Assembly: GCA_023267535.1 (NCBI GenBank)
Contig: JAHFNC010000004.1
Location: 3,757 to 67,756, forward strand
Length of the DNA: 64,000 nt
Source of the DNA: a bacterium
GTDB taxonomy: Bacteria > Patescibacteriota > Minisyncoccia > Phycocordibacterales > UBA5272
Direction: 5' to 3'
A program made the position numbers and the translations under genes. The notes beneath the pieces were generated by a model that was not told the origin of the DNA, searched no databases, and saw only the letters and a program-made list of their open reading frames with translations. Position 1 is the first letter of the stretch; every line of letters starts with the position of its first letter. Below are positions 1,184-17,765 of the stretch, piece after piece.

Positions 1184-2650
1184 ATGAGTAAATTTATGTT
1201 TGAACAAACTTTTAAGAATATAGACGACATCTTACATAAAGATGCAGGATGCGGAAGTGAGCTTGATTATGTTGAACAAACCTCATGGGTACTATTTTTG
1301 AAGTACCTCGATGATTTAGAGAAAGACAAGAAAACAGCGGCTGAACTTGCAGGAAAAAAGTACACCAACATCATATCTACTGAATACAGTTGGACTACGT
1401 GGGCTACACCAAAAGGTAAAGACGGAAAACTTGATCATCATAAAGCCTTAACTGGAGATGATTTAAAAGACTTTGTTGATCTTAAACTTTTTCCTTATCT
1501 TAAGAAATTTAAAACCACAGCTTTAAGTCCAGATACTATTGAATACAAGATTGGTGAGATTTTTTCTGAATTAAAAAATAGAATTCATAGTGGATATAAC
1601 TTACGTGAAGTTATTAATCGTATAGACGAGCTTCGTTTTCGTACTCATGCAGAAAAGCATGAAATGAGCCACTTGTATGAATCTAAAATACAGAACATGG
1701 GGAATGCTGGTCGTAATGGTGGTGAGTACTATACTCCAAGACCACTTATTACTACTATTGTTAAAGTGGTAGCTCCAAAAATTGGAGACACTATTTATGA
1801 TGGTGCAGTAGGTAGTGCAGGATTCTTATGTGAAGCTTTTGATTACCTAAAGAAGAGTAAAAACCTTACAACGAAAGATGTAGAAATTTTACAAAAGAAA
1901 ACTTTTTATGGAAAGGAAAAGAAATCATTAGCATATATTATCGGTACAATGAATATGATTTTACACGGTGTAGAAGCTCCTAATATTATCCATACCAACA
2001 CTCTTGCTGAAAATCTTGCAGATATACAAGAAAAAGATCGTTATAATGTTGTGTTGGCAAACCCACCATTTGGAGGAAAAGAACGAGTAGAGGTACAGCA
2101 GAACTTTCCAATTAAAACAGGAGAAACTGCTTCTCTTTTCTTACAACACTTTATTAAGATATTAAAAGCAGGAGGTAAAGGCGGTGTGGTTATAAAAAAT
2201 ACATTTCTTAGTAATACAGATAACGCTACGGTTAGTTTAAGAAAGTTACTTCTTGAGAATTGTAACCTACATACAGTATTAGACTTACCTGCTGGAACTT
2301 TTACAGGTGCCGGTGTCAAAACAGTCGTACTCTTTTTTGAAAAAGGGTCCTCTACGAAAAAAGTATGGTTCTATCAACTTAACTTAGACAGAAATCTCGG
2401 TAAAACAAATTCACTTAGCGAGAAAGATTTAGAAGATTTTATTAAACTTCAAAAGAATAAAGCAGAAAGTGAAAACTCTTGGAGTATAGATATAAAAAAC
2501 ATAGACCAAAAGACTTTTGATTTAAGTGCAAAGAACCCTAACAAAAAAGAAGAGGTTGCTTTGCGTTCCCCAGAAGAGATTTTGAAAGAGATGAAAGCTT
2601 TAGATAAGGAGAGTGAAAAGATATTAAGCGGTATTATTAAATTGATATGA
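1184..2650 (+). CDS. hsdM: Type I restriction-modification system, N6-adenine DNA methyltransferase subunit M
   Basis: 488 aa. HsdM N-terminal region, SAM-binding 'YDGAVGSAGFL', catalytic 'NPPFGG'. First gene of an M-X-S-R array. Confidence 0.95.
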   Translation: MSKFMFEQTFKNIDDILHKDAGCGSELDYVEQTSWVLFLKYLDDLEKDKKTAAELAGKKYTNIISTEYSWTTWATPKGKDGKLDHHKALTGDDLKDFVDLKLFPYLKKFKTTALSPDTIEYKIGEIFSELKNRIHSGYNLREVINRIDELRFRTHAEKHEMSHLYESKIQNMGNAGRNGGEYYTPRPLITTIVKVVAPKIGDTIYDGAVGSAGFLCEAFDYLKKSKNLTTKDVEILQKKTFYGKEKKSLAYIIGTMNMILHGVEAPNIIHTNTLAENLADIQEKDRYNVVLANPPFGGKERVEVQQNFPIKTGETASLFLQHFIKILKAGGKGGVVIKNTFLSNTDNATVSLRKLLLENCNLHTVLDLPAGTFTGAGVKTVVLFFEKGSSTKKVWFYQLNLDRNLGKTNSLSEKDLEDFIKLQKNKAESENSWSIDIKNIDQKTFDLSAKNPNKKEEVALRSPEEILKEMKALDKESEKILSGIIKLI

Positions 2651-3714
2651 ATGAAAAAAAAGAAGTAAAACATATTTTTATAGATTCGAATATTTTTTTA
2701 GATTTTTATAGATTAGGGAAAGAAGATTTAGAGAAACTTAATCAGTTGATTGACTTTGTTAAAAATGGTGATATTAAAATATATTTAACAAAACAGGTCT
2801 ACGATGAATTTTACAGACACAGAGAAGACACCTTTCAAAAAACATACAAAGGTTTTTTAGACTCAAAAACTGATATTCAGATGAATTCTATTTTTAAGAA
2901 TTATCCAGAATATAAAAAGATTACTCTTTTGAAAAAAGCTTTAGAGAAACTTAAGTCTGACTTAGGTCAAAAAGTAGAAAGTGACATGAGTTCAAAAAGT
3001 TTAATTGCGGATGAGGTTGTGAGAAAAATATTTGAAGCCTCTTTTTATATTGATTCGGATAAGTTTTTAGAAATGGCGATTATAAGACACAGACTTGGAA
3101 ATCCACCAGGTAAAAAAAATACTAGTTATGGAGATGAAATCAACTGGGAAACATTACTAAGTGTGGTTCCTGACGGAGAAAAACTAATAATAGTTAGTAA
3201 CGATGGAGATTACGAAAGTCCAATGTCAGAAAGAAAAATCAACGGCTATTTGGAAGCTGAATGGGATAAAAAAAAGAAATCAAAAATCTATTTATACAAG
3301 TCCCTAAGTTCATTTTTTAGAGAACACAACATTGCTATTGAGTTTGAAATTGAACAAGATAAAAGTTTACTTGTAGAAAATTTGATAAACAGTGGTAGTT
3401 TTATGGTAACTCACGAAGTTATAAGAAGGCTTTCAAAGTATAATTCATTTTCAGACGACCAAATAAAAGGTCTTGCTACAGCTTTACTAGGTAACTCGCA
3501 AGTACGGTCAATTATAGAAGATGATGATGTTAGAACTTTTTATAAAATAAACTTACTGTCTAGGTCTGATATTTTTGACGATGAAATGTGGAGTGAGATA
3601 GAGTCTCTTATTATAGTTAACCCAGTTCAGGTTAATAAAGATATTGAGGATATTATTAAAAGTCTTGATGATAAAATTGATGAAGATATCAATGTGGACG
3701 ACATTCCATTTTAA
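2647..3714 (+). CDS. PIN-like (DUF4935-type) putative nuclease embedded in the type I R-M operon
   Basis: 355 aa. ATG 2647-2649 overlaps the hsdM TGA 2648-2650. 'IFIDSNIFLDF', 'VYDEF', 'GNPPGKKNTSYGDEINWETLL' and 'IIVSNDGDY' give the acidic-residue pattern of PIN-like domains. The C-terminal ~150 aa are unassigned. Only 3 nt separate it from hsdS. Confidence 0.65.
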   Translation: MNEKKEVKHIFIDSNIFLDFYRLGKEDLEKLNQLIDFVKNGDIKIYLTKQVYDEFYRHREDTFQKTYKGFLDSKTDIQMNSIFKNYPEYKKITLLKKALEKLKSDLGQKVESDMSSKSLIADEVVRKIFEASFYIDSDKFLEMAIIRHRLGNPPGKKNTSYGDEINWETLLSVVPDGEKLIIVSNDGDYESPMSERKINGYLEAEWDKKKKSKIYLYKSLSSFFREHNIAIEFEIEQDKSLLVENLINSGSFMVTHEVIRRLSKYNSFSDDQIKGLATALLGNSQVRSIIEDDDVRTFYKINLLSRSDIFDDEMWSEIESLIIVNPVQVNKDIEDIIKSLDDKIDEDINVDDIPF

Positions 3715-3717
3715 TTT

Positions 3718-4839
3718 ATGAAAAAAGAAAACTGGGAAATAAAAAGTTTTGAAGAATGTCTTGAAAAAGTTGTTTATACAAACAAAATTCAAAGAAAAGA
3801 TTTTCTTGATAATGGAAAGCATCCAGTAATTTCACAAGAGAAAGATTTTGTTAATGGGTACTGGGATAATTCTAAAGATTTATTTAAGGTTAGAAAACCA
3901 GTTATAATTTTTGGTGATCATACACAAGTCTTAAAATATGTAGATTTTGATTTTGTTCTTGGTGCTGATGGTGTAAAAATACTTCAGCCTACAAGTGAGC
4001 TAGAACCAAGATTTTTTTACTATTATTTACAAAACATAAATATTGGTAGTTTAGGATACGCAAGACATTACAGATTATTAAAAGAGAGTGAAGTAGAATT
4101 TCCAAAGTCTCTTTTAGAACAGCAACGCATAGTGTCAGTTTTAGATAAAGCATTCGTTGATATATCTAAAGCAAAAGATATTGCTGAACAGAATCTTAAA
4201 AATGCAAAAGAACTTTTTGAAAGTTATTTACAGAGTATGTTTACAAATAAAGGAGATGATTGGGAAGAGAAAACATTAGGCGGTATTGCTTTTGTAAAAA
4301 GTGGAGGAACTCCTTCAAGGTCTAAAAAAGAATACTGGACAGGTAAAATAGCTTGGTATTCGTCGGGTGAATTAAATAATTTGTACACCACAACGCCAGA
4401 AAGATATATTAACGATTTAGCAATTAGTAACTCAAATGCAAAAATCTTTCCAAAAGGTTCTCTTTTAATAGGTATGTATGATACTGCGGCTCTAAAAATG
4501 TCTATATTAGACAGAGACGGTTCTTTTAATCAAGCTATTGCAGGTGTAAAACCTAATGACAAAATTGACTTAACTTTTATTTTACACTCTATCAACTCTA
4601 TCAAACCAGAATTACTTAATTTAAGACGTGGTGTTCGTCAGAAAAATCTAAGTCTTGAAAAGATAAAAAGTATCCCTACCTATGTTCCTCCACTTCAAGT
4701 ACAGAAGAATGTTGTTTCTAAATTAGGAGAACTTTCCACTGAAACAAAAAAACTTGAAGCAATCTATGAACAAAAATTAAATGACTTAGAAGAACTTAAG
4801 AAAAGTATTCTTCAAAAGGTATTTAACGGCGAACTATAA
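3718..4839 (+). CDS. hsdS: Type I restriction-modification system, specificity subunit S
   Basis: 373 aa. Two target-recognition halves, each followed by a conserved helical spacer ('LLEQQRIVSVLDKAF...' and 'LQVQKNVVSKLGEL...'). Confidence 0.9.
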   Translation: MKKENWEIKSFEECLEKVVYTNKIQRKDFLDNGKHPVISQEKDFVNGYWDNSKDLFKVRKPVIIFGDHTQVLKYVDFDFVLGADGVKILQPTSELEPRFFYYYLQNINIGSLGYARHYRLLKESEVEFPKSLLEQQRIVSVLDKAFVDISKAKDIAEQNLKNAKELFESYLQSMFTNKGDDWEEKTLGGIAFVKSGGTPSRSKKEYWTGKIAWYSSGELNNLYTTTPERYINDLAISNSNAKIFPKGSLLIGMYDTAALKMSILDRDGSFNQAIAGVKPNDKIDLTFILHSINSIKPELLNLRRGVRQKNLSLEKIKSIPTYVPPLQVQKNVVSKLGELSTETKKLEAIYEQKLNDLEELKKSILQKVFNGEL

Positions 4840-4860: not shown

Positions 4861-7182
4861 ATGAACGAATCTGAAACAAGGGCAGAGCTAATTGATCCAA
4901 AGCTAAAAGCTTGTGGTTGGGGTGTTGTTGAAGGATCTAAAATACTCCGTGAATACAATATTACTGCTGGTAAAATCCAAACTGGAGGTATAAGAGGAAA
5001 GCTACTTACTGCTGATTATGTATTGGTCTACAAAGGCATAAAATTGGCTGTGGTTGAGGCAAAGAGTGCAAATATAGGAGTTGGTGAGGGTGTTGCACAA
5101 GCCAAGCAATATGCAGAGAAACTAAAAATAGAAACAACCTATTCTACAAACGGAAAAGAGATATACAGTATCTGTATGAAAACTGGTGTTGAGGGTTTGG
5201 TTTCTGGTTATCTCTCACCTGATGAACTTTGGAACAAAACTTTTTCGGTTCAAAATGAATGGAGAGAGAAATTTAGTTCTATTCCTTTTGAAGATAAGAG
5301 TGGCTCTTGGCAATTACGTTATTATCAAGAAATAGCAGTAAAGAATGTTCTTGAATATGTTGCAAATGATAGGGACCGCATTTTGCTCACCTTAGCTACT
5401 GGTACAGGTAAAACAGCTATCGCTTTTCAGATAGTATGGAAACTATTTCAGACAAGATGGAATTTAAAACGTGACGGTTCTCGTCGTCCTCGTATTTTAT
5501 TTTTAGCAGATAGAAACATATTAGCCGACCAAGCATACAACTCTTTTTCTTCATTTCCAGAAGATGCTTTGGTGCGTATTAATCCTAAAGAAATAAGTAA
5601 GAAAGGAAGTGTGCCTACTAATGGGTCTATTTTCTTTACTATCTTTCAAACCTTTATGAGTGGTAAAGATGCCGAGGGAAACCCTGCACCATACTTCGGA
5701 GAATATCCATCTGATTACTTTGATTTTATTATTATAGACGAATGTCATCGTGGCGGTGCAAACGATGAAGGAAACTGGAGAGGTATCTTGGAATATTTTT
5801 CTCCTGCTGTGCAATTAGGTTTAACAGCTACCCCAAAGCGTAAAGATAATGTCGATACATATAAATATTTTGGTGAGCCAGTATATATTTATTCTCTTAA
5901 AGAGGGTATTAATGATGGATTTCTTACACCTTTTAAGGTTAAGCGTATTAAGACAACATTAGACGATTATATTTATACAAGTGATGACCAAATCATCGAA
6001 GGGGAAATCGAGGAAGGAAAACTTTATACCGAACCTGATTTTAATAAGATAATTGAAATTAAAGCGAGAGAAGAAAAGCGTGTGAAGGTATTTATGGACG
6101 AAGCAAATCAAAATGAAAAAGCTATTGTCTTTTGTGCTACTCAAGATCATGCGGCTGCGGTTCGTGATTTAATTAATCAATACAAGAAAAGTGCTGATCC
6201 AAATTATTGTGTCCGTGTTACAGCAAATGATGGAGAGATAGGCGAACAATTTTTAAGAGAATTCCAAGATAACGAAAAAACTATACCAACTATTTTAACG
6301 ACATCACAGAAACTTTCAACTGGAGTAGATGCTAGAAATATACGTAACATTGTACTCATGCGACCAGTGAACTCTATGATTGAATTTAAGCAAATTGTAG
6401 GGCGTGGTACACGTTTATTTGATGGTAAGGAATTCTTTACTATTTATGACTTTGTGGATGCTTATCACCATTTTGCGGATCCTGAATGGGATGGAGAACC
6501 GATCAGTCCAGTAGATGATGAACCTACGGAACCTAAACCACCAAAAGGGGTAGAGGGTGAACCACCTTTTCCTCCAGAACCACCAACAGAACCAAATAAG
6601 AAACTTAAGATTAAATTACGAGATGGAAAAGAACGTGAAATACAACACATGATAGCAACTTCTTTTTGGGGTGCAGACGGTAAACCTATTTCTGTGGAAG
6701 AGTTTTTACAAAACCTGTTTGGGACACTGCCTAGTCTTTTTAAGGGTGAAGAAGAGTTGCGAGAGATATGGAGTAATCCAATAACAAGAAAAAGTTTGTT
6801 AGAAAAACTAGACGAGGCTGGGTATGGAAAAGACGAACTAACTACATTACAGAAATTAATTGACGCTGAAAATAGTGATCTTTTTGATGTGTTGGAATAT
6901 GTATTTAATAGTGACGTTAAACCGATACCAAGAGAGATAAGAGTAGAAACATCACAGGAAACTATTTTTGAATCCCTTAATGATAAACAAAAAGAATTTA
7001 TTGAATTTGTGTTGAGTAAATATATTGAAACAGGTGTAGAAGAATTAGACCAAGAGAAACTACCAATACTTCTTACTAATAAATATCAGTCGCTAGAAGA
7101 TGCAAAAGATACACTAGGTGATATTGATTTGATTCGTTCGATTTTCTTCAAATTCCAAGAGAAACTATACGCAAAAGTATAA
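4861..7182 (+). CDS. hsdR: Type I restriction enzyme, R (helicase/endonuclease) subunit, EcoEI-R-like
   Basis: 773 aa. N-terminal 'SETRAELIDPKL..GW' region. SF2 motifs 'LATGTGKT', 'IIIDECHRG', 'LGLTATP', 'QIVGRGTR'. Pro-rich linker, then a C-terminal domain resembling the EcoEI R C-terminus ('DLFDVLEYVF...'). Confidence 0.93.
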   Translation: MNESETRAELIDPKLKACGWGVVEGSKILREYNITAGKIQTGGIRGKLLTADYVLVYKGIKLAVVEAKSANIGVGEGVAQAKQYAEKLKIETTYSTNGKEIYSICMKTGVEGLVSGYLSPDELWNKTFSVQNEWREKFSSIPFEDKSGSWQLRYYQEIAVKNVLEYVANDRDRILLTLATGTGKTAIAFQIVWKLFQTRWNLKRDGSRRPRILFLADRNILADQAYNSFSSFPEDALVRINPKEISKKGSVPTNGSIFFTIFQTFMSGKDAEGNPAPYFGEYPSDYFDFIIIDECHRGGANDEGNWRGILEYFSPAVQLGLTATPKRKDNVDTYKYFGEPVYIYSLKEGINDGFLTPFKVKRIKTTLDDYIYTSDDQIIEGEIEEGKLYTEPDFNKIIEIKAREEKRVKVFMDEANQNEKAIVFCATQDHAAAVRDLINQYKKSADPNYCVRVTANDGEIGEQFLREFQDNEKTIPTILTTSQKLSTGVDARNIRNIVLMRPVNSMIEFKQIVGRGTRLFDGKEFFTIYDFVDAYHHFADPEWDGEPISPVDDEPTEPKPPKGVEGEPPFPPEPPTEPNKKLKIKLRDGKEREIQHMIATSFWGADGKPISVEEFLQNLFGTLPSLFKGEEELREIWSNPITRKSLLEKLDEAGYGKDELTTLQKLIDAENSDLFDVLEYVFNSDVKPIPREIRVETSQETIFESLNDKQKEFIEFVLSKYIETGVEELDQEKLPILLTNKYQSLEDAKDTLGDIDLIRSIFFKFQEKLYAKV

Positions 7183-7200: not shown

Positions 7201-9744
7201 TTAGATCATTCTTTTCTTTATGTTTCGTACAAGATCAGTGATTTCTTTCTTTGCAATATCAGGGATTTTAAATATAGAAACATCAGTTTTTAATAACCAT
7301 TCGGCACATTCCTTTCTATCATAATCCATACTTTCAATGTGGTTAGAAATTTCAATGGCTGTATGTCTACTTAGTCCGAGATTGATAAGAGAAACTTGGG
7401 TCCTTTCAAATACCCCAAACTCGAGCCACATATTTAAATCAGGGACGGAATCAAGAAACTCAGGGTGATTCATACTAAGATAATACTTTAAAATATCAAT
7501 ATAACATGAAGAATACTTTGCAAATTTAAACCTAACATATTCTTCTATATCCCCCATTGTGTTTCTGATAATTAGTGAAAGCTTTTTCTTGGGATCTCTA
7601 TTCTCCCAGTACCTAATATTAGACTTTATTATTCTAGCAAGTGGATATCCTCTCATCCAATTAGTTACTAGAATGGTGTAGTAAGGTGCGAGCGCTTCGT
7701 GGTCCCCAGAAAGAATTCTACTTATTCTTTTTATAATTGCTATGTAGCAATTAGACGCATCTAAATCGTCAGGTAAAACAGGAATTAGGTTTTTTATGTC
7801 ATCATCATAATTTACAAAATAATCAAAGAGTTTTTGTTGAGATATGGGGTTTATACCGGGATTTCTAAAAATTATATCATCTGGTATTTGAAGTGACTCT
7901 TTTACTTTTGAACACTCTACCTCAAGTTCATTAATGAAATCTTCGTCAAGAGGTTCATTTTTTAAGGAAGAGTTTTTAAGGAATTTTGTGAAATAATAAC
8001 TAAAAGCATATTCATGGTTAGAGCTAGAAGTTTCTTTAAAGTTACCTCTTATGTATTCAAGAAGATCAGTTTTATTTTCTGAAGCTTCAGTGATTGCTCT
8101 CTTAATAAAGTGCTTTGTTTTTTCTCTGATAGGTATATTATCCCAATCTTCAGGATCAATACATATAATATTTCCTTGAAATTCCTTTTTTAGGCGACCA
8201 GCTCGACCAGCGAGATTCCAAAAATCAGCTCCTGACATCGGTACTTTATTTCCTCTTTTTGGTTTTCTTATAAAAATTGATTTTGCTGGAAGGTTAACTC
8301 CTTCGAGAAGGGTTGAAGTACATACTAAGTATTTAATATGACCCTCAGAATATAATCTTTCAATTTCTTTTCTAATAACAAGTGGCATGTTGCCGTAATG
8401 AAAAGCAATCTTTCTTTCTAGAACTTTAGCTAAAGCATATTCTGGATGAATTAATTTCTTTATTAAATCAATCAATTCATTTATTTGATCATCTTCTGTT
8501 TCCTCTTTAGTTCCGACAAGATCAAAAAGTTTTTCTGAAGCATCTTCAGCATCTGCTTGTCCATTTACATATATCATGTTGCCACCTTCATTTGAACCAA
8601 GTAAGTAGCAAAAAGTAGACAGTTTTTCTTTTTCGTTTAAAGTTTGATTTAAGTTAATTTGCCCCAGTGGAGTAGATATATTTTTTAGACATAGGTTTAC
8701 GCTCCACTGCTTAGGGTGCCCCACTAATTGTGATACCCAAATTAAATTTTGATTTACGGCAATATATTCAGTAACTATAGTAGACCTATCTTCCTGGTTA
8801 CCTAAGCCATCCAGTAGAACCCCAGGGTTTTGAGAGAATGGACTACAGAATAGTATTTTTATGGCTGGTAGTCGAGTTGTAAGCTCTTCAATTTTTTGTT
8901 GTAAAAGAATACCTCTACCACCATCTCCAATTTTTTGAGCTTCGTCAATGACAAGAAAATCAATCTTAAAAGTGGGATTGTCACTTAGAAACCAATGTAA
9001 TCTTTCTTGCGTAAATATAAATAGAGATGGTTTGTTTAAGTCCATTTCATCAGGTGACTGAGGTACAGAACTTAGGTAAACAGAATAGTCTTCCTTATTA
9101 AACAATTGATCAGAAAAATCTTGCTCTACTTGATTGATAAGTGCTCTGGTAGGGACTATGTAGACAATATTTTTTGGATTCTTTTTGTCGTTTAGTTGCT
9201 CTAAAACAAAAGTATTTAGAATAAATGATTTTCCAGAAGAGGTTGGAGCAGAAGCACTTAAATAGTTTGAACTGTATGCTTTATCGTAAAAGTCTTTTTG
9301 AAATTTATTAAGATATATTGGCTCTTCATTTGTTTTTGTAAAAATGATATGTTCCACATCTCTTCTTGCATTTTCAATTTTAAAAGGTAACGGTATATCA
9401 TTATCGTAATCTGAAGGTAGATATTTCTTATGGATAGCAAGATTAATAGCTGGTTTGTTTGTTAACTTATGCAAAATGATAGATGCTCCAATTCTTTGGT
9501 TCTTCTTTGTTTCTGCATCTGTTAAACAACACTGGGCAATCCTTAATGCTGCATCTTGACAATCTGGGTTATCTGAATGTGATATTATACTTGCACACAT
9601 TAATAAATGATCCCAGTTTGGTATGTAAAATAAGTCAGATTGTTGATTTAAAATTGGGAAAAGTTTTATTACCGAATTTCTAATAATAGATAATAGGTCT
9701 TGTTGAAAGCTTTTTAAGTTATAAACTTTTTCAGGAAGGGTCAT
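7201..9744 (-). CDS. hamB: HamB-like SF2 (DEAQ-box) helicase, Hachiman-type defence
   Basis: 847 aa. Walker A 'SAPTSSGKSF', 'LVIDEAQK', 'CTSTLLEGVNLPA', 'LAGRAGR'. Its start overlaps the upstream DUF1837-like gene by 14 nt. Confidence 0.8.
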   Translation of the reverse strand: MTLPEKVYNLKSFQQDLLSIIRNSVIKLFPILNQQSDLFYIPNWDHLLMCASIISHSDNPDCQDAALRIAQCCLTDAETKKNQRIGASIILHKLTNKPAINLAIHKKYLPSDYDNDIPLPFKIENARRDVEHIIFTKTNEEPIYLNKFQKDFYDKAYSSNYLSASAPTSSGKSFILNTFVLEQLNDKKNPKNIVYIVPTRALINQVEQDFSDQLFNKEDYSVYLSSVPQSPDEMDLNKPSLFIFTQERLHWFLSDNPTFKIDFLVIDEAQKIGDGGRGILLQQKIEELTTRLPAIKILFCSPFSQNPGVLLDGLGNQEDRSTIVTEYIAVNQNLIWVSQLVGHPKQWSVNLCLKNISTPLGQINLNQTLNEKEKLSTFCYLLGSNEGGNMIYVNGQADAEDASEKLFDLVGTKEETEDDQINELIDLIKKLIHPEYALAKVLERKIAFHYGNMPLVIRKEIERLYSEGHIKYLVCTSTLLEGVNLPAKSIFIRKPKRGNKVPMSGADFWNLAGRAGRLKKEFQGNIICIDPEDWDNIPIREKTKHFIKRAITEASENKTDLLEYIRGNFKETSSSNHEYAFSYYFTKFLKNSSLKNEPLDEDFINELEVECSKVKESLQIPDDIIFRNPGINPISQQKLFDYFVNYDDDIKNLIPVLPDDLDASNCYIAIIKRISRILSGDHEALAPYYTILVTNWMRGYPLARIIKSNIRYWENRDPKKKLSLIIRNTMGDIEEYVRFKFAKYSSCYIDILKYYLSMNHPEFLDSVPDLNMWLEFGVFERTQVSLINLGLSRHTAIEISNHIESMDYDRKECAEWLLKTDVSIFKIPDIAKKEITDLVRNIKKRMI

Positions 9745-10714
9745 AGGTTATCCCAAGTGCCTCCAAGAAGTGCTTTCTAAACTCTTCCACAGAAGGAAAT
9801 GGAAGCAGAAAAACATGTATATCAAAAGTTTCAAGATTTGTATGTTTTGAAATATGTTTGACAACATTTTTTGACCAACCTTCTATTTCTTTGTTAATCT
9901 TTTCTTTTATTTGTTCAGTGGTTTCTGTGTTTGCAACGCTTGGGTATTTATCATAATCAAATCCAATGAGGCACACACCTTTATACCTTACCTGATTATG
10001 GAGAGGGTCGTCTTTGTCCAAATATTTTAATAGAGCAACTTCCAATCTCTCATCTATTACACTCAAGTTGTCCCTCATTAATTGTAAGTCTCTTTCTGCT
10101 GGAGCAGATATTCCTCCATCTGATAAAAGAAACTCTTTAAGACTTATGAAACATTTAGAGATGCCATCGTTTAAATCTTTGTACAGTTTTGATTCACCCC
10201 AATATAAAGATAGAATATCCCTTCCTTCTTCATTTAACTCCACAGAAACATGAATACCATCAGCTCCGTTCACATGGAGTTCTGGGTTTGTTTTTAATGG
10301 CATCTTACATAGTAGTTGGGGAATTTTTAGATACTCCTGAATAAGAATATAGAGAAGCATTTCACCACCTTCACCTGTCTTCTTTAGTGAAGTAAAAAGA
10401 CTTTTTGCTTTTTCAATAAGCTCGTAAGTTTTTGTGGTTGTGTTATGTTTTGTATCATATTCTTTTGCCACCTCATATTCTTTTCTTGGAATTGCATAAT
10501 CAGCTACATGCTTTGCCACAAAACGTGCAAAGTCCTTAGTGCGAGGTCTACCATTTCCGTCTAAAGTTAAAAAGTAACAATGTGAGGTTGCTTTAGTATC
10601 TTTTAAATTAACATTTGATATAACTTCAGTTATATAAGTATTTATTTCTTGTTTGCTTGTTCTCAGAAGATCAGCAATAAGTTCTGCAATATTATCTTGG
10701 TTAGCAGTAGTCAT
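9731..10714 (-). CDS. hamA: DUF1837 / HamA-like PD-(D/E)xK nuclease, Hachiman-type defence
   Basis: 327 aa. 'GEGGEMLLYIL' and 'NGADGIHV...(21 aa)...YWGESKLY' (D152...E174-x-K176), as I recall for DUF1837. Coupled to the helicase gene. Confidence 0.72.
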   Translation of the reverse strand: MTTANQDNIAELIADLLRTSKQEINTYITEVISNVNLKDTKATSHCYFLTLDGNGRPRTKDFARFVAKHVADYAIPRKEYEVAKEYDTKHNTTTKTYELIEKAKSLFTSLKKTGEGGEMLLYILIQEYLKIPQLLCKMPLKTNPELHVNGADGIHVSVELNEEGRDILSLYWGESKLYKDLNDGISKCFISLKEFLLSDGGISAPAERDLQLMRDNLSVIDERLEVALLKYLDKDDPLHNQVRYKGVCLIGFDYDKYPSVANTETTEQIKEKINKEIEGWSKNVVKHISKHTNLETFDIHVFLLPFPSVEEFRKHFLEALGITYDPS

Positions 10715-10720
10715 ATTTTA

Positions 10721-11200
10721 TTAATTTAAGAATCTACTTATTGGTTCGTTGAGCAGCGATTCAGCAATTTCTATCAGAATATTATCTCTAAAGCTTTGAA
10801 AATCTTTAGCTCCATGGAAGGTGTTGCATCGTATTTGATATATACACTTCATAATATTCGTTACATCCTTTATATCAATAAGTAAAATACCCTCTAAGTT
10901 ATTTTTTGTGGGTCTCATATCCCTAATAGGTGTCTCCTTTTTTAAATCTTCTAATCTTTCTAAATATTTGGGAGAAGACCAGGTTTCTATAAAAATATTT
11001 TTTAGAATATTATCATTATTATAAAACCAGTTTAATTTATGACTGTCTGTGATATTTGCTGCATTACTTCGGAAAGACTCGTCTGTAATGTACGCGTCAA
11101 AAATCATCCAATAAATAATGAATCGAATCCATGCATCAGCTGTATTTTCATCGGCTTTCCTTTTCCATGTTCTAAGTCTTTCTATAAATTCAGGGTCCAT
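10721..11200 (-). CDS. HEPN-like small protein (putative RNase), first gene of the Hachiman-like operon
   Basis: 159 aa. 'IRCNTFHG' fits the HEPN Rx4-6H motif (R124..H129). N-terminal 'AWIRFIIYWMIFDAY' helix. Its stop codon lies 6 nt upstream of the hamA-like start. Confidence 0.5.
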   Translation of the reverse strand: MDPEFIERLRTWKRKADENTADAWIRFIIYWMIFDAYITDESFRSNAANITDSHKLNWFYNNDNILKNIFIETWSSPKYLERLEDLKKETPIRDMRPTKNNLEGILLIDIKDVTNIMKCIYQIRCNTFHGAKDFQSFRDNILIEIAESLLNEPISRFLN

Positions 11201-12011: not shown

Positions 12012-13034
12012 ATGAACAAGCAAGCTGTGCTCTCTATTGTTCCAAATATTCCAAACGCTGAAGACGAAGATCCTGGCGTCGCCCTATTAATATCGGCCGA
12101 CCAGCTTCTTTTTGATCCAAATCAACCAAGAAAGAGATACACGAAAAAAGGTCTTGAGAAATTGGCTAAAAGCATTCAAGACCAAGGTTTGCAACAGCCG
12201 GTGGTCGTTACCTTTGCTTATCGTAAGAAAGGCATAGATTACTATTACATCAAGTTCGGCGAAAGGCGTTATCGCGCTCATATTTTGCTTGGCTACAAAA
12301 ACGTTCCTTGTCTTGTGAAGAAGGGGACCTACGACGGCAAGCTTGATGTGGAACGAGTGCTTGCGCAGACTTCGGAAAATAATTTGCGCGAACCACATTC
12401 GCACAGCGAGATGATTAACGTCCTTCGTTTGGTCGTTGAAGACGAACGAGAAAAGTCTGATGGCGTGATTGGCTACATCGGCAAAGCTCAAGAAAGATTT
12501 GCCACAGCTCTTGGCTATACCGCTGAGGCCACCAGAAGGTATCACGTTTTGGCTAATCTTCATTCGGAGTTAGTTGAGATGTTGGATATTGAAGACGAAG
12601 AAGAAGGGGACGAACGAGAAAAGCTTAACTTCAGCGTTGCTCTTTCTTTGGCTAGAGCACCAAAAGATGCTCAGCTTGGGATTCTTGAAAGGTCAAAGCC
12701 TCACTTTGAAAAGTCTCACAATCACGGCATTGCTTTTGTTTCTGAACAAGCAAGGTCTGTTCGCGAGAGTCGTGGTGAAAAGATAGTCGGCAGGAAGCCG
12801 AGCGAATCAATTGACCTTGTCAGGAAATTTCTAACCTTCACCAACAATCGCCACGATTTGGTCTTTGGGCAAATGAAGCCAGCTGAGATAAAAGCCATTT
12901 TGGCTTCGGCGAGCGTGACCACCGTTGATGTTTTGCTTAACGCAGTCATTATGGCCGCAACAAACCTGAAATCACTTCAGGCACTGATTCAAGAAAGGAG
13001 AGATTACAATTATAGAGAATTCAGAAAGAAATAA
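12012..13034 (+). CDS. ParB/Srx N-terminal-domain protein (ParB-like nuclease domain), orphan
   Basis: 'LLFDPNQPRK', 'IQDQGLQQPVVV' and 'KFGERRYRAH' (GERRxRA arginine patch). RBS GGAGGGAG lies upstream of ATG 12012, so the track start at 11955 is probably too early. No parA nearby. Confidence 0.75.
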   Translation: MNKQAVLSIVPNIPNAEDEDPGVALLISADQLLFDPNQPRKRYTKKGLEKLAKSIQDQGLQQPVVVTFAYRKKGIDYYYIKFGERRYRAHILLGYKNVPCLVKKGTYDGKLDVERVLAQTSENNLREPHSHSEMINVLRLVVEDEREKSDGVIGYIGKAQERFATALGYTAEATRRYHVLANLHSELVEMLDIEDEEEGDEREKLNFSVALSLARAPKDAQLGILERSKPHFEKSHNHGIAFVSEQARSVRESRGEKIVGRKPSESIDLVRKFLTFTNNRHDLVFGQMKPAEIKAILASASVTTVDVLLNAVIMAATNLKSLQALIQERRDYNYREFRKK

Positions 13035-14474: not shown

Positions 14475-15056
14475 ATGAAAATAAAAGGAGAAATATCATT
14501 GAAAGGAATTATACAAGGAACAGCTATTGGTCTTACTTTGGTCTTGGCCGTGCTCTACGCAGCTCAAGACGAAGGATTGGTAAATTTTAACTTACCAGAG
14601 AAAACAGCAAACACGATTGGCACTTATTATAAAGTTACCAGAGTGATTGATGGTGACACCATTGAAGTAAAAATGAACAGTGGTTTAGAAAAAGTGAGAT
14701 TGATTGGAATAAACACGCCGGAAATTGTTGACCCACGCAAACCAGTGGAATGTTTTGCAAAGGAAGCTAGTAACAGAATGCATTCTTTGGCTAGCGGACA
14801 AAATGTGAAGCTTGAATTTGATGATTCGCAAAGTTATCGTGATATTTACAATCGACTTTTGGCTTATGTTTATTTGCAAGATGGGGAAATGTTGAATAGA
14901 AAAATGATTGCCGAAGGTTATGCTTATGAATATACCTATATGGCTCCTTACAAATATCAAAAAGAATTTCGCGACCTGCAAACTTTTGTACAAGGAAGCG
15001 AGAGGGGACTTTGGGCCAAAGATACTTGTAACGGCAGTAAAGAGTTTCCAAAATAA
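14475..15056 (+). CDS. membrane-anchored thermonuclease (staphylococcal nuclease, SNase family)
   Basis: N-terminal TM helix, then 'VIDGDTIEV', 'VRLIGINTPE', 'YNRLLAYVYL' and 'AEGYAYEY'. Confidence 0.9.
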   Translation: MKIKGEISLKGIIQGTAIGLTLVLAVLYAAQDEGLVNFNLPEKTANTIGTYYKVTRVIDGDTIEVKMNSGLEKVRLIGINTPEIVDPRKPVECFAKEASNRMHSLASGQNVKLEFDDSQSYRDIYNRLLAYVYLQDGEMLNRKMIAEGYAYEYTYMAPYKYQKEFRDLQTFVQGSERGLWAKDTCNGSKEFPK

Positions 15057-15058
15057 TT

Positions 15059-15763
15059 ATGGACACAATACAAGATTTACTTAAGAAAATATTAGTCGCT
15101 ATTCCAATCTTGTTTTTATTTGGACTTATATATTTCGTAGCGAAAGAATTAATTTTATTAATCCCTTCTTCGCCTTCTGATTCGGCGACAACTACACAGC
15201 GTTCTTTGGGCTGGTATTTTTTCGGAGATTATTTACCATCACCAAACAACAAAGGACTTCTTGGAAAAGCCAAGACTCCAAGTGCTACAGATAATGTCTT
15301 CGTAGCAAGTAATATTTACGATAGCGGAGGAGGTGATAATAACACTACTTATGTCAGTTATGATGCTAATGGCAAAGCGATTTATACCAAAGGAATACAA
15401 GCTCGTCCGAACCCGGGAGCGAATAAAACTTTCCAAAAAGAATTATATCTTAGAAATTTATCAATTTATACAGGAGGACATATTTATACTGGGCTTTCTT
15501 TTACTGGCGAAGCAAAGAACACAATGTTTGATAACACAGGGAAATTTCAGATGCTTGTGACCGATATGTACGGAAGAGTTATTACCATGGCTTATGCGCA
15601 AGCGAGCACGGCATGGTCAATTCCAGGGTGGACTAGATTTAATATAGTGATAACCTCAGCTCTTCCAAACAAAGTGCAATGTCAGCTAGTTTTTCTCGCT
15701 GCACAAGGTTCTAGAGATGGAGCAGACGGAGTTCATATAGAAATACCAGAATTTTGTAATTAA
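15059..15763 (+). CDS. membrane-anchored exported protein with C-terminal Gmad2-like Ig domain
   Basis: N-terminal TM helix. The C-terminal 'FTGEAKNTMFDNTGKFQMLVTDMYGRVI...WTRFNIVI...VHIEIPE' resembles the Gmad2 Ig-like domain pattern. Confidence 0.5.
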   Translation: MDTIQDLLKKILVAIPILFLFGLIYFVAKELILLIPSSPSDSATTTQRSLGWYFFGDYLPSPNNKGLLGKAKTPSATDNVFVASNIYDSGGGDNNTTYVSYDANGKAIYTKGIQARPNPGANKTFQKELYLRNLSIYTGGHIYTGLSFTGEAKNTMFDNTGKFQMLVTDMYGRVITMAYAQASTAWSIPGWTRFNIVITSALPNKVQCQLVFLAAQGSRDGADGVHIEIPEFCN

Positions 15764-15787
15764 ATAAATAATCAAGATTAAGAAAAG

Positions 15788-15812
15788 AAAAAGCACCTAT
15801 TCGGTGCTTTTT
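15788..15812. terminator. bidirectional Rho-independent terminator
   Basis: A-run-GCACC-tattc-GGTGC-T5 between convergent genes. It overlaps the stop codon of the minus-strand gene. Confidence 0.65.
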
Positions 15813-16201
15813 GAAAGCTGTTCAATCAGTCTTTCGTCGTCTTCTGGATGAAGGGCAGCGTGAGCAAATTCTGGATTGGTTTTGATTTGATTATTCCAGT
15901 CATCAATCAATTCTTGAGTGTGTCCAGCTTTCGCTTCTCTTTCCGCCTCTTTTTTTCTTTTGTTTGCTTCTCCTGCAATGTGAGAAATGTAACTTCTCAC
16001 ACCCGAAGGCATAGAGTAGTAACCGTCTTTAAAACCAATGGCGTTTGCTACATTGTTTTTCTTTTGGTTGAAACTACCGGCAAAAGTATCATAGGCTTCA
16101 AAGAACTGTTTCCCTACGGCAACATCTTTATCTGTCCAAGGCATCTCTTTCTCCAATAATTTGTCAGAAGGGGTTTTATTTGGAAAAGATTCTATGCTCA
16201 T
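15797..16201 (-). CDS. hypothetical protein (134 aa)
   Basis: ORF only. Confidence 0.5.
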   Translation of the reverse strand: MSIESFPNKTPSDKLLEKEMPWTDKDVAVGKQFFEAYDTFAGSFNQKKNNVANAIGFKDGYYSMPSGVRSYISHIAGEANKRKKEAEREAKAGHTQELIDDWNNQIKTNPEFAHAALHPEDDERLIEQLSKSTE

Positions 16202-16216
16202 AATACAATATTTTGT

Positions 16217-16663
16217 CTAAATGACAAGTCTGTCGATAACTGATTTTACTAGAGCACCGTCAGCATTACTTCCAAGCTCTCTCATCATTGTTCCAACAAA
16301 TTGTCCTTTCTTGGTTGCGTCGATTGGTGATTCGGCTAATTTTGCTTTAACTTTCTCTTCAATTTCCGCTTCAGACATTTGTGCTGGAAGCAAAGCTTCG
16401 ATTATGACAAGTTCTGCTTGTTCACTTTCTGCTAAGTCAGGACGACCACCGGAAGTAAATTGTTCGATAGAATCTTTACGTTGCTTAGCTAATCTTTTTA
16501 TCACTTTCATACAATCATCATCAGAAAGTGGCTCCTGTGGAGGTCTGCCTTGAGCAACTAATTCATTTGTAAATGCAGCCGAGATTCCGCGCAAAACTTG
16601 TAATTTATCCATTTCTTTTGCCATCATGGCTGCTTTAATTTGAGCTTTTATATTTTCTTGCAT
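16217..16663 (-). CDS. yqeY: GatB/YqeY domain protein
   Basis: 148 aa. 'IKAQIKAAMMAKEMDKLQVLRGISAAF' and the overall YqeY pattern. Confidence 0.85.
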   Translation of the reverse strand: MQENIKAQIKAAMMAKEMDKLQVLRGISAAFTNELVAQGRPPQEPLSDDDCMKVIKRLAKQRKDSIEQFTSGGRPDLAESEQAELVIIEALLPAQMSEAEIEEKVKAKLAESPIDATKKGQFVGTMMRELGSNADGALVKSVIDRLVI

Positions 16664-16712
16664 AGTTTTAAAAGTATATCATAAGTTGAAATTCGCGTGA
16701 TATACTTTCCCT

Positions 16713-17765
16713 ATGTTAATGACTTTTTTAATTATTTTGGGAATTATTATCTGTGCGCTTTTGGGAATGATTCTAATGCGTCAGAACGATGCTAAAGACG
16801 TAAAAGAAGATGACCAAACATTTTTAATTCTCCAAGATCAGTTAGAAAAATTACGAAATGCTGTAGAAAACAAATTAGAGCGTTCACAATCAGAGCTGCA
16901 TCAAGTTCTTCATCGTCAGGATTCAGAATCAAAACGTCTCATCACCGAAATCACCAAAGAATTAACCGAAGTGAAAGAAGGGAACAAGCAAGTTTTTTCA
17001 ATGACTGAGCAATTACAAAATCTTGAGAAAATTTTAACCCATCAAAAGCAACGTGGGAATTTAGGCGAAGCATCACTTGAACTTATTCTTTCAAATATGA
17101 TGTCTCCTGGGCAATACGAAATGCAATACAGATTTAAGACCGGTGAAGTTGTAGACGCTGTCATTCATACTAAAGACGGCATCATACCAGTGGATGCTAA
17201 GTATTCACTTGATAATTATCAGAGATTAATGAACGCTACCGACGAAGAAGAGACTGCTTATTATCAAAATGAATTCAAAAAAGATATTCAAAAGCGAATT
17301 GACGAGACTTCAAAATACATAAAGCCAGATGAAGGCACACTACCTTTTGCTTTTATGTTTATTCCAGCTGAGGGAATCTATTATGACCTACTTGTGAATC
17401 AAGTTTCCAAAGGTGCAATCAACACGCAAAATTTAATTGAGTATGCTTATAATAAAAGAAAAGTGATTATTGTTTCGCCGACAACTTTCTACGCATATTT
17501 GCAATCAGTGCTTTTTGGGTTCAAAGCTTTTCAGATTGAAGAGAGCGCCAAAGGTATACAAAAGAAAGTGGAGGACCTAGGAAAGCATTTAGCTGTTTAC
17601 GAAGATTACATGAAGAAGTTAGGTAATACATTAGGAACGACAGTTAATCATTACAATACCGCATACAAAGAATTAAAAAAAGTTGATAAAGATGTACTAA
17701 AAATAACTGGCGAAGAAATCGGATTGGAAGTTTTAACATTGGATAAACCAGACATTGAAGAATAG
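16713..17765 (+). CDS. rmuC: DNA recombination protein RmuC
   Basis: N-terminal TM helix plus coiled coil. C-terminal 'VDAVIHTKDGIIPVDAKYSLDNY...FMFIPAEGIY'. Confidence 0.9.
   Translation: MLMTFLIILGIIICALLGMILMRQNDAKDVKEDDQTFLILQDQLEKLRNAVENKLERSQSELHQVLHRQDSESKRLITEITKELTEVKEGNKQVFSMTEQLQNLEKILTHQKQRGNLGEASLELILSNMMSPGQYEMQYRFKTGEVVDAVIHTKDGIIPVDAKYSLDNYQRLMNATDEEETAYYQNEFKKDIQKRIDETSKYIKPDEGTLPFAFMFIPAEGIYYDLLVNQVSKGAINTQNLIEYAYNKRKVIIVSPTTFYAYLQSVLFGFKAFQIEESAKGIQKKVEDLGKHLAVYEDYMKKLGNTLGTTVNHYNTAYKELKKVDKDVLKITGEEIGLEVLTLDKPDIEE

What the first reader, a model, noticed from the sequence alone, without database searches (positions are those of the whole stretch)
2647..3714. PIN-like nuclease gene translationally coupled inside a type I R-M operon (hsdM-PIN-hsdS-hsdR)
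The 355-aa ORF starts with an ATG that overlaps the hsdM stop (ATGA) and ends 3 nt before hsdS. It is therefore expressed as part of the R-M operon. Its N-terminal ~200 aa carry the acidic-residue series of PIN-like (DUF4935-type) domains: IFIDSNIF, VYDEF, GDEINWETLL, IVSNDGDY. The C-terminal ~150 aa match nothing I recognise.

The position mirrors the anticodon nuclease PrrC, which is embedded in the EcoprrI type I locus and kept latent by the R-M proteins, and RloC-type genes. A PIN-type RNase guarded by a type I enzyme would be an analogous back-up suicide module with a different effector fold.
Basis: partly seen in the sequence, partly recalled or inferred. Interest (0 to 1): 0.7.

Follow-up and report, generated by a model that had tools for sequence, protein, structure and literature searches.

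The report
Solo PIN nuclease riding in R-M operon
A real 355-residue PIN-type nuclease gene sits, translationally coupled, between hsdM and hsdS of a type I restriction operon, but its relatives mostly work alone, so it looks like a self-contained candidate anti-phage gene using the operon as a carrier rather than a PrrC-like partner of it.

Summary
ORF 2647-3714 overlaps the hsdM stop (ATGA) and ends 3 nt before hsdS. It matches Pfam PIN_12 (ex-DUF4935, E 1e-19), and a confident AlphaFold model (pLDDT 93) has a VapC-like PIN fold. All family-conserved acidic residues are present.

The C-terminal third is a conserved all-helical repeat domain. About half of the relatives, including this one, end in an acidic tail, ...DDIPF, identical to the tip of bacterial SSB.

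The PrrC-like reading is only partly supported:
- In the clade at least 40% identical, about 20 of 27 loci lie inside type I R-M operons, in at least four arrangements.
- PIN and R-M phylogenies disagree: 69%-identical PINs sit in 36%-identical systems, and the reverse also occurs.
- An 80%-identical orthologue stands alone among housekeeping genes.
- Across the wider family, only 17 of 80 loci have R-M genes nearby, and no neighbour family is conserved.
- A 36%-identical homologue fills the P1-like phage slot that otherwise holds the EcoP1I res/mod genes or CapRel(SJ46).

Best reading: an autonomous single-protein nuclease, a defence candidate carried as cargo inside R-M operons. No function was tested. 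This is a new member of a known kind; the SSB-like tail is the one unexpected feature.

The parts
1184..2650 (+). hsdM (488 aa), type I methyltransferase subunit. Its TGA overlaps the PIN start codon.
   Evidence: Pfam N6_Mtase 2.1e-61, HsdM_N 6e-8; ORF list.
2647..2650 (+). ATGA overlap of the hsdM stop and the PIN gene start (translational coupling junction).
   Evidence: Sequence read directly. The same -4 overlap is seen at 9 of the 80 genome loci. At seven of those (L001, L006, L008, L009, L010, L064, plus L007 beside hsdR) the locus is R-M-linked.
2647..3714 (+). PIN_12-family gene, 355 aa: PIN nuclease, helical domain and acidic tail.
   Evidence: There are 206 homologues at E<=1e-3, the best 94% identical. 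AlphaFold2 pLDDT 93.4, pTM 0.83.
2674..3213 (+). PIN (VapC-like) nuclease domain, aa 10-189, with a long helical insert (aa ~81-131). Conserved residues: D13, E54, D122, D163, D186, D188.
3097..3117 (+). GNPPGKK loop (aa 151-157), the most conserved stretch of the family. G151, P153, P154 and G155 are invariant in 121 sequences. Role unknown.
   Evidence: Alignments A1 and A4.
3343..3681 (+). C-terminal all-alpha helical-repeat domain (helices from aa 234 to 344). Conserved residues: T255, H256, N283, Q285, D292, D294. Predicted sensor or regulatory domain (inference).
3643..3711 (+). [quoted passage not shown]
   Evidence: Sequence. 72 of 121 homologues end in xPF and 55 of 121 in acidic-[ILV]PF. 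The motif occurs in 17 of 80 PIN ORFs against 1 of 2916 other ORFs in the same loci. It is the only such ORF end in the window. SSB-Ct sequence from PMC7913777. pLDDT is 69-84 here.
3718..4839 (+). hsdS (373 aa), specificity subunit. Starts 3 nt after the PIN stop.
   Evidence: Pfam Methylase_S 2.2e-28, two stretches.
4861..7182 (+). hsdR (773 aa), restriction subunit of the EcoEI-like family.
   Evidence: Pfam ResIII 3e-39, EcoEI_R_C 1.6e-23, SWI2_SNF2, HSDR_N.

Best explanation
The gene encodes a self-contained, single-protein PIN_12-family nuclease. It is most likely an anti-phage or anti-mobile-element effector that carries its own regulation. It is cargo in the type I R-M operon, not a subunit or ward of it.

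**Shown by computation:**
- PIN fold with a complete set of conserved acidic residues.
- A conserved C-terminal helical-repeat domain that occurs almost only fused to this PIN domain.
- An SSB-tip-like acidic tail.
- Operon embedding with overlapping or abutting stop and start codons.
- Repeated, independent insertion of this gene family into unrelated type I operons.
- Occupancy of a prophage defence slot by a homologue.

**Inferred:**
- The N-terminal PIN domain, most likely an RNase as in the VapC group, is held inactive in cis by the helical domain and/or the acidic tail. This would resemble fused toxin-antitoxin defence proteins such as CapRel.
- An infection cue releases the nuclease. 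The cue could be a phage protein or a nucleoprotein complex bound by the helical domain, or a protein that grabs SSB tails.
- The released nuclease cuts RNA or invading nucleic acid and stops phage growth.
- Sitting between hsdM and hsdS gives constitutive co-expression and co-transfer with a first-line defence. It would provide a second layer against phages that escape restriction, without requiring contact with HsdMSR.
For: **The protein.**
- PIN_12 hit and fold.
- Conserved catalytic residues.

**No partner gene.**
- The -1 and +1 neighbours of 80 loci fall in 67 and 92 different Pfam families. None is present in more than 4 loci. This agrees with Matelska 2017, who described the family as 'usually mono-cistrons'.

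**The gene moves independently of R-M.**
- Solitary 80%-identical orthologue in a Saccharibacteria MAG.
- The 50%-identical one follows a mur ligase gene.
- Window vs L008: HsdM 73%, HsdR 68%, PIN 48%. Window vs L087: PIN 69%, HsdM 36%, HsdR 34%.
- Arrangements seen: M-PIN-S-R, R-M-PIN-X-S, M-X-S-PIN-R and R-PIN.

**Defence context.**
- Hachiman lies next door.
- A 36%-identical homologue in phage JL22 and about 22 IncY P1-like plasmids sits exactly where P1 has res/mod and SJ46 has its RelA/SpoT (CapRel) gene.
- The C-domain is shared with PDC-S34, a PADLOC candidate. That candidate class was defined by embedding in BREX, DISARM and type I R-M systems (bioRxiv 10.1101/2024.01.29.577857).
- A PIN12-domain single-gene integron cassette, Cosus/Brc24, gives more than 1e5-fold protection against T7, and point mutations chosen in its predicted PIN12 domain (T12A, D14A, D96A) reduce this to about 100-fold (bioRxiv 10.1101/2024.07.02.601719).
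Against: - No function was tested. Defence is inferred from context and from a relative (Cosus) whose sequence I could not obtain. Its mutated residue numbers do not fit any of my 80 loci, so it may belong to a different PIN_12 sub-family.
- The strong R-M linkage in the close clade (about 20 of 27 loci) is higher than simple defence-island clustering would suggest. It leaves room for a generic functional tie to type I enzymes.
- Many wider-family loci sit among ordinary genes with no recognisable defence neighbours.
- Substrate (RNA or DNA), trigger and autoinhibition are all unverified. I had no model coordinates to see where the tail docks.
Confidence: 0.55

Rival explanations
1. PrrC-like guard. 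The PIN nuclease is bound and silenced by the type I R-M complex. It is unleashed when a phage anti-restriction protein such as Ocr or Stp disables that complex, causing abortive infection.
For: - Translational coupling on both sides.
- About 20 of 27 loci in the clade at least 40% identical are inside type I operons, always on the same strand and often with 4-nt overlaps.
- PrrC sets the precedent (PMC12707154).
Against: - The 80%-identical orthologue and most of the family lack any R-M neighbour. An unguarded toxin would be lethal if the R-M complex were its antitoxin.
- PIN and Hsd trees are incongruent, and at least two HsdR families are involved: the EcoEI_R_C type, and the HSDR_N/T1R_D3/T1RH_C type.
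- In P1-like phages the homologue sits alone in the slot.
- PrrC is 'almost exclusively' embedded in type I R-M; this family is not.
- There is no ABC ATPase or PrrC nuclease domain.
Confidence: 0.15
2. Housekeeping or repair nuclease. The SSB-like tail places the protein in the SSB interaction network at replication or repair sites, or in RNA processing. The R-M and phage contexts are incidental.
For: - The DDIPF tail is identical to the SSB tip that recruits genome-maintenance enzymes.
- Several loci lie among ordinary genes.
Against: - Distribution is patchy: 347 hits among 185,579 species genomes.
- Phylogeny is incongruent with neighbouring genes.
- The gene occurs in R-M operons, a prophage defence slot and beside Hachiman.
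- The tail is missing in roughly half of the members.
Confidence: 0.1
3. Addiction module. A VapC-like toxin with a fused or missing antitoxin stabilises the R-M operon or mobile element by post-segregational killing. It has no role in sensing phage.
For: - VapC-like fold.
- Location on mobile or variable DNA.
- Matelska 2017 noted PIN toxins coupled to type I R-M, sometimes without an antitoxin.
Against: - No conserved small upstream antitoxin gene.
- The protein is 355 aa with a conserved extra domain, unlike VapC proteins of about 130-150 aa.
- A single stable polypeptide cannot give the differential decay that addiction needs.
Confidence: 0.1

Closest known systems
Pfam PF16289 PIN_12 (formerly DUF4935), VapC structural group (Matelska et al. 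2017, PMC5499597)
   Same: Full-length domain match above threshold. Size is about 350 aa, with an N-terminal PIN domain carrying a long helical insert and an uncharacterised C-terminal region. Genes are mostly monocistronic.
   Different: That paper assigned no function and did not report the R-M-embedded sub-clade, the helical-repeat nature of the C-domain or the SSB-like tail.
PrrC / RloC anticodon nucleases embedded in type I R-M loci
   Same: A nuclease gene is inserted within a type I hsd operon and co-expressed with it. A second-line, possibly suicidal, role is plausible.
   Different: The fold differs: PIN rather than an ABC ATPase plus a HEPN-like nuclease. The family is not confined to R-M loci, does not co-evolve with Hsd proteins, and has close orthologues that stand alone.
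Genes embedded in defence systems (Payne et al. 2024, 'guilt by embedding'; PADLOC PDC-S34) and TgvAB in the V. cholerae type I operon (PMC11411939)
   Same: These are independent defence genes nested inside type I R-M operons. The C-domain here is homologous to part of PDC-S34.
   Different: Only 70-110 residues of the 384-position PDC-S34 profile match, so this is not that family. No experimental test exists.
Cosus (Brc24), a PIN12-domain integron cassette
   Same: A single gene with a PIN_12-type domain. Phage protection drops sharply when residues in the predicted PIN12 domain are mutated.
   Different: It is found in integrons rather than in R-M operons.
CapRel(SJ46)-type fused toxin-antitoxin defence proteins
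   Same: One polypeptide with an N-terminal toxic enzyme and a C-terminal regulatory or sensor domain. A homologue of this PIN occupies the same P1-like phage slot as CapRel(SJ46).
   Different: The enzyme is unrelated (PIN nuclease rather than a RelA/SpoT pyrophosphokinase). Autoinhibition here is only inferred.
SSB C-terminal acidic tip (MDFDDDIPF)
   Same: Identical terminal DDIPF at the free C-terminus, after an acidic segment modelled with lower confidence.
   Different: It is attached to a nuclease, not to an OB-fold ssDNA-binding protein. Binding partners are unknown.

Membership tests
Pfam PIN_12 (PF16289, ex-DUF4935) | HMM score above the curated gathering threshold over the whole domain | tested here: met
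   71.9 bits against a cut-off of 32, profile positions 1-172 of 172, aa 10-189.
Pfam PIN_12 (PF16289, ex-DUF4935) | PIN (VapC-like) fold with conserved acidic metal-binding residues | tested here: met
Pfam PIN_12 (PF16289, ex-DUF4935) | About 350 aa with a less conserved C-terminal region of unknown structure (Matelska 2017) | tested here: met
   355 aa. The C-domain profile finds the same layout in the top 150 of 1380 representatives.
PrrC/RloC R-M-linked anticodon nucleases | ABC-ATPase N-domain plus a C-terminal anticodon-nuclease domain | tested here: not met
   No PrrC, RloC or ATPase hit in PADLOC, Pfam or NCBIfam.
PrrC/RloC R-M-linked anticodon nucleases | Near-exclusive embedding in type I R-M loci | tested here: not met
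   17 of 80 genome loci have Hsd genes within 6 kb. In the clade at least 40% identical the figure is about 20 of 27, but an 80%-identical orthologue is solitary.
PrrC/RloC R-M-linked anticodon nucleases | Latency through binding to the R-M complex, with activation by an anti-restriction factor | not testable with these tools
   This needs co-purification and toxicity assays. Incongruent PIN and Hsd identities argue against a co-evolved interface.
VapBC type II toxin-antitoxin | Cognate antitoxin gene immediately upstream | tested here: not met
   The upstream gene here is hsdM. Upstream neighbours of 78 loci share no family.
VapBC type II toxin-antitoxin | Single-domain PIN toxin of about 130-150 aa | tested here: not met
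   355 aa with a helical insert and an extra domain.
PADLOC candidate PDC-S34 | Full-length match to the PDC-S34 profile | tested here: not met
   Only profile positions 297-366 of 384 match (E 1.2e-13). The same partial match is seen in six other family members.
Cosus (Brc24) PIN12 defence | Sequence homology to Brc24 beyond the shared Pfam domain name | tested here: inconclusive
   The Brc24 sequence is not held. Its mutated residues match at most 4 of 11 positions in any of my 80 family ORFs.
SSB C-terminal tip motif | Acidic run ending in [IL]PF at the free C-terminus | tested here: met
   ...DEDINVDDIPF-COOH. Conserved in 55-72 of 121 homologues. Background is 1 of 2916 ORFs.
SSB C-terminal tip motif | Binds the SSB-tip pockets of partner proteins | not testable with these tools
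   Requires binding assays or complex prediction.
Type I R-M system (host operon) | HsdM, HsdS and HsdR genes with their signature domains in one operon | tested here: met
   Intergenic distances are -4, +3 and +21 nt.

The most novel reading that the evidence does not exclude
The conserved ...DDIPF tail is a functional copy of the SSB C-terminal tip and acts as the switch of the nuclease. It could work in two ways. It could be a decoy bound by phage or host proteins that normally dock on SSB tails, such as recombinases, helicases or exonucleases, so that hijacking of SSB becomes the infection signal. Or it could be an SSB-style autoinhibitory tail that occupies the PIN nucleic-acid groove until displaced. 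Either would be a new way for a bacterial immune nuclease to sense replication of foreign DNA.
Probability: 0.2. Interest if true: 0.8.

Novelty: new member of a known kind. Interest (0 to 1): 0.42.

Why it matters
Genes nested in R-M operons are a rich, partly catalogued source of new immune functions. This case adds a widespread, uncharacterised PIN_12 family: about 1,400 clusters at 50% identity, found from CPR bacteria to E. coli P1-like phage-plasmids.

- **Cargo, not partner.** The family keeps inserting into unrelated type I operons yet also works alone. That separates cargo from guarded partner and cautions against reading every embedded nuclease as PrrC-like.
- **A tractable test system.** The E. 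coli phage-plasmid homologue can be tested directly in its native host.
- **The SSB-tip tail.** If functional, it would link a nuclease effector to the SSB interaction hub, which several defence systems are now known to monitor.

Tried and rejected
- **Genetic code 25.** I checked whether the TGA 'stop' of hsdM is really a Gly codon, because the nearest relative is labelled Gracilibacteria. Rejected: no in-frame TGA in any real gene of the window.
- **DARNA (PD-T7-3).** This SSB-linked RNase looked like a possible identity. It is a HEPN protein, not PIN.
- **Cosus/Brc24.** I tried to place it in my alignment through its mutated residue numbers. No fit, and the supplement has no sequence.
- **PDC-S34 description.** Searched for in the Payne et al. 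supplements; not found.
- **Other architectures of the C-domain.** A profile search of 1.84 billion representatives put only the same PIN-plus-C-domain proteins or fragments in the top 150. The odd 428-aa hit is also PIN_12.
- **Sequence search against the PDB.** Nothing found.
- **Other structure libraries.** The AFDB library was unavailable. The viral structure library gave one weak 'PIN like domain' hit.
- **Internal promoter or terminator in the operon.** Nothing above chance.
- **Literature on an SSB-tip mimic in a defence nuclease.** None found in the library searched.
Full report
**1. What is in the sequence**

ORF 2647-3714 (+) encodes 355 aa. Its ATG overlaps the TGA of the upstream gene as ATGA. 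Its TAA is followed after 3 nt by the next start codon, and the fourth gene starts 21 nt after the third.

The flanking genes are a standard type I R-M set:
- HsdM: N6_Mtase 2e-61 plus HsdM_N.
- HsdS: Methylase_S, two target-recognition stretches.
- HsdR: ResIII, EcoEI_R_C, HSDR_N.

Consensus promoter and terminator matches inside the operon are no more frequent than in shuffled sequence. A single transcription unit is therefore the simplest reading.

The nearest relative (94% identity) comes from a MAG labelled Gracilibacteria, a lineage that reads TGA as glycine, so I checked the genetic code. None of the real genes in the 64-kb window has an in-frame TGA. The five TGA-terminated ORFs would gain only 2-18 codons if read through. 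TGA is a stop here, and the coupling junction stands.

**2. What the protein is**

- **Family.** Pfam gives PIN_12 (PF16289, the former DUF4935) at E 1.1e-19 over the full profile, and PIN_8 at 5e-9.
- **Homologues.** There are 206 at E<=1e-3. In a 121-sequence alignment R147, G151, P153, P154, G155, D163, D186, E205, W206 and N283 are invariant. D13, E54, D122 and D188 are more than 90% conserved.
- **Structure.** AlphaFold2 with this alignment gives pLDDT 93.4 and pTM 0.83.
- **Domain pairing.** A profile of the C-terminal 160 aa (residues 196-355), searched against 1.84 billion representatives, finds 1380 proteins. The best 150 are all the same roughly 330-aa PIN-plus-C-domain layout, or fragments of it.
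- **Link to known defence models.** The only hit in PADLOC is a partial one, PDC-S34 at profile positions 297-366 of 384, E 1e-13. Six other family members show the same partial hit. PDC candidates were defined by Payne et al. as genes embedded in BREX, DISARM and type I R-M systems.

**3. An unexpected feature: the tail**

The protein ends ...DEDINVDDIPF. [quoted passage not shown]

- Of the 121 aligned sequences (the window protein plus 120 homologues), 72 end in xPF and 55 in acidic-[ILV]PF. Others end in acidic-aromatic variants such as DDEWDF and EDTWMF.
- In the 80 genome loci the motif closes 17 PIN ORFs but only 1 of 2916 other ORFs.
- No other ORF end in the window has it in any of the six frames.
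- The tail occurs both in R-M-embedded and in solitary members.
- I found no paper in the library describing such a tail on a defence nuclease.
- I could not see where the tail docks, because model coordinates are not exposed.

**4. Is the R-M embedding meaningful?**

A scan of one genome per species (185,579 species) found 347 relatives. I examined the best 80 loci.

*Wider family.* Iterated HMMs built from the window's Hsd proteins found R-M genes within 6 kb in 17 of 80 loci. Pfam scans of the immediate upstream and downstream genes gave 67 and 92 different families. None was present in more than four loci. So there is no conserved partner, in line with 'usually mono-cistrons' (Matelska 2017).

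From general knowledge, a random gene should have a type I gene within 6 kb well under 1-2% of the time, so 21% is a clear enrichment. I ran no matched control.

*Close clade.* In the clade at least 40% identical to the window protein (genome, metagenome and contig look-ups), about 20 of 27 loci are inside type I operons. At least four layouts occur:
- M-PIN-S-R: window, L001, L008, L090, L091.
- R-M-PIN-X-S: L087.
- M-X-S-PIN-R: L006, L009, L010, L012, L097, L098.
- R-PIN: L002, L089, L067, L072.

These layouts involve at least two HsdR families: the EcoEI_R_C type, and the HSDR_N/T1R_D3/T1RH_C type.

**5. Cargo or partner?**

Pairwise identities are incongruent:

| Comparison | HsdM | HsdR | PIN |
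|---|---|---|---|
| Window vs L008 | 73% | 68% | 48% |
| Window vs L087 | 36% | 34% | 69% |

L008's PIN is also closer (57%) to the PINs of L006 and L009. Those sit after hsdS in systems whose HsdM is only about 27% identical to L008's HsdM.

Other observations point the same way:
- An 80%-identical orthologue (P0005, Saccharibacteria) stands alone between ordinary genes.
- A 50%-identical one follows a mur ligase gene and precedes an SMC_N/AAA gene.
- A 36%-identical full-length homologue is carried by phage JL22 and about 22 IncY P1-like plasmids of E. coli. It lies between lxc/ulx/darB and mat. That is the slot where P1 has its type III res/mod genes and where phage SJ46 has its RelA/SpoT gene. 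From my own knowledge, that gene is the CapRel(SJ46) defence protein.

A toxin that needed a particular R-M complex as antidote could not behave like this. The gene behaves as a mobile, self-sufficient cassette that prefers defence loci, and in one clade type I operons in particular.

**6. Mechanism**

Shown by computation: a PIN nuclease with an intact site, a dedicated helical domain, an SSB-like tail, co-expression with R-M, and independent mobility.

Inferred:
- It is a single-chain effector with a built-in regulator, analogous in logic to fused toxin-antitoxin defence proteins.
- The nuclease is probably an RNase, because Matelska et al. place the family in the VapC group.
- The nuclease is released when the helical domain or tail engages an infection-specific ligand.

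The one experimental anchor is indirect. Cosus/Brc24 is a single-gene integron cassette reported to have a PIN12 domain. It protects more than 1e5-fold against T7, and the T12A, D14A and D96A mutants (residues chosen in the predicted PIN12 domain) retain only about 100-fold protection. I could not confirm that Cosus belongs to this exact family.

**7. Comparison and verdict**

It is a member of Pfam PIN_12. It is not a PrrC/RloC homologue, not a canonical VapBC pair and not PDC-S34.

Each piece of the concept has been described before:
- PIN nucleases coupled to type I R-M (Matelska 2017).
- Defence genes embedded in type I operons (PrrC; TgvAB; Payne et al.).
- A PIN12-domain single-gene defence (Cosus).

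The finding is therefore a new member of a known kind: real and reasonably interesting, but not a new principle. Two points go beyond the literature I could search. The first is the evidence for repeated independent capture by unrelated type I operons. The second is the SSB-tip tail, which is the lead most worth testing.

Noticed in passing
window 7201-10714 (-), plus ORF 10721-11200 (-): A complete Hachiman system lies tail-to-tail with hsdR, 19 nt apart: HamB 847 aa (PADLOC E 5e-285) and HamA 327 aa (E 4e-121). A 159-aa ORF directly upstream of hamA has no Pfam hit and only a weak DzbB match (1e-4). The R-M/PIN operon is therefore part of a small defence island.
   Followed up: partly
window 12012-13034 (+), and 14475-17765: A ParB_N-domain protein sits in a patch of about 45% GC against a background of about 33%, which suggests foreign DNA. 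It is followed by a staphylococcal-nuclease homologue (14475-15056) and RmuC (16713-17765).
   Followed up: no
whole window: TGA ends only 5 of 56 long ORFs, three of them in 4-nt ATGA-type overlaps with the next gene. No real gene has an in-frame TGA. Yet the closest public relative (L001) is labelled Gracilibacteria, a lineage known for reading TGA as Gly. Either the label or the code assumption does not apply to this organism.
   Followed up: partly
L102/L103 (E. coli and Klebsiella IncY plasmids), phage JL22, L104 (P1), L105 (SJ46): The slot between lxc/ulx/darB and mat in P1-like phage-plasmids is an exchangeable defence site. It holds res/mod in P1, a RelA/SpoT (CapRel) gene in SJ46, and the PIN_12 homologue in JL22 and about 22 plasmids. 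That E. coli homologue lacks the DDIPF tail.
   Followed up: partly
L087 7059-7940; L006, L009 and L035 between hsdM and hsdS: Several of the related type I operons carry a second embedded gene of unknown function next to the PIN gene, for example a 293-aa protein with no Pfam hit in L087. These may be further defence candidates.
   Followed up: no
L081/L083 7228-9543; L084 7780-8754: Solitary PIN homologues have neighbours that may themselves be defence genes. One is a 771-aa SMC_N/AAA_23/AAA_21 protein downstream in a Moranbacteria MAG. The other is a bPH_2 + SLFN_AlbA_2 protein on the opposite strand in the Saccharibacteria MAG.
   Followed up: no
window 3097-3117 (aa 151-157): The GNPPGKK loop is the most conserved element of the family, more so than some catalytic acids. 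It is not a feature of the classical PIN/VapC active site as I know it. Its role (phosphate or nucleotide binding, or a pocket for the tail) is unexplained.
   Followed up: no
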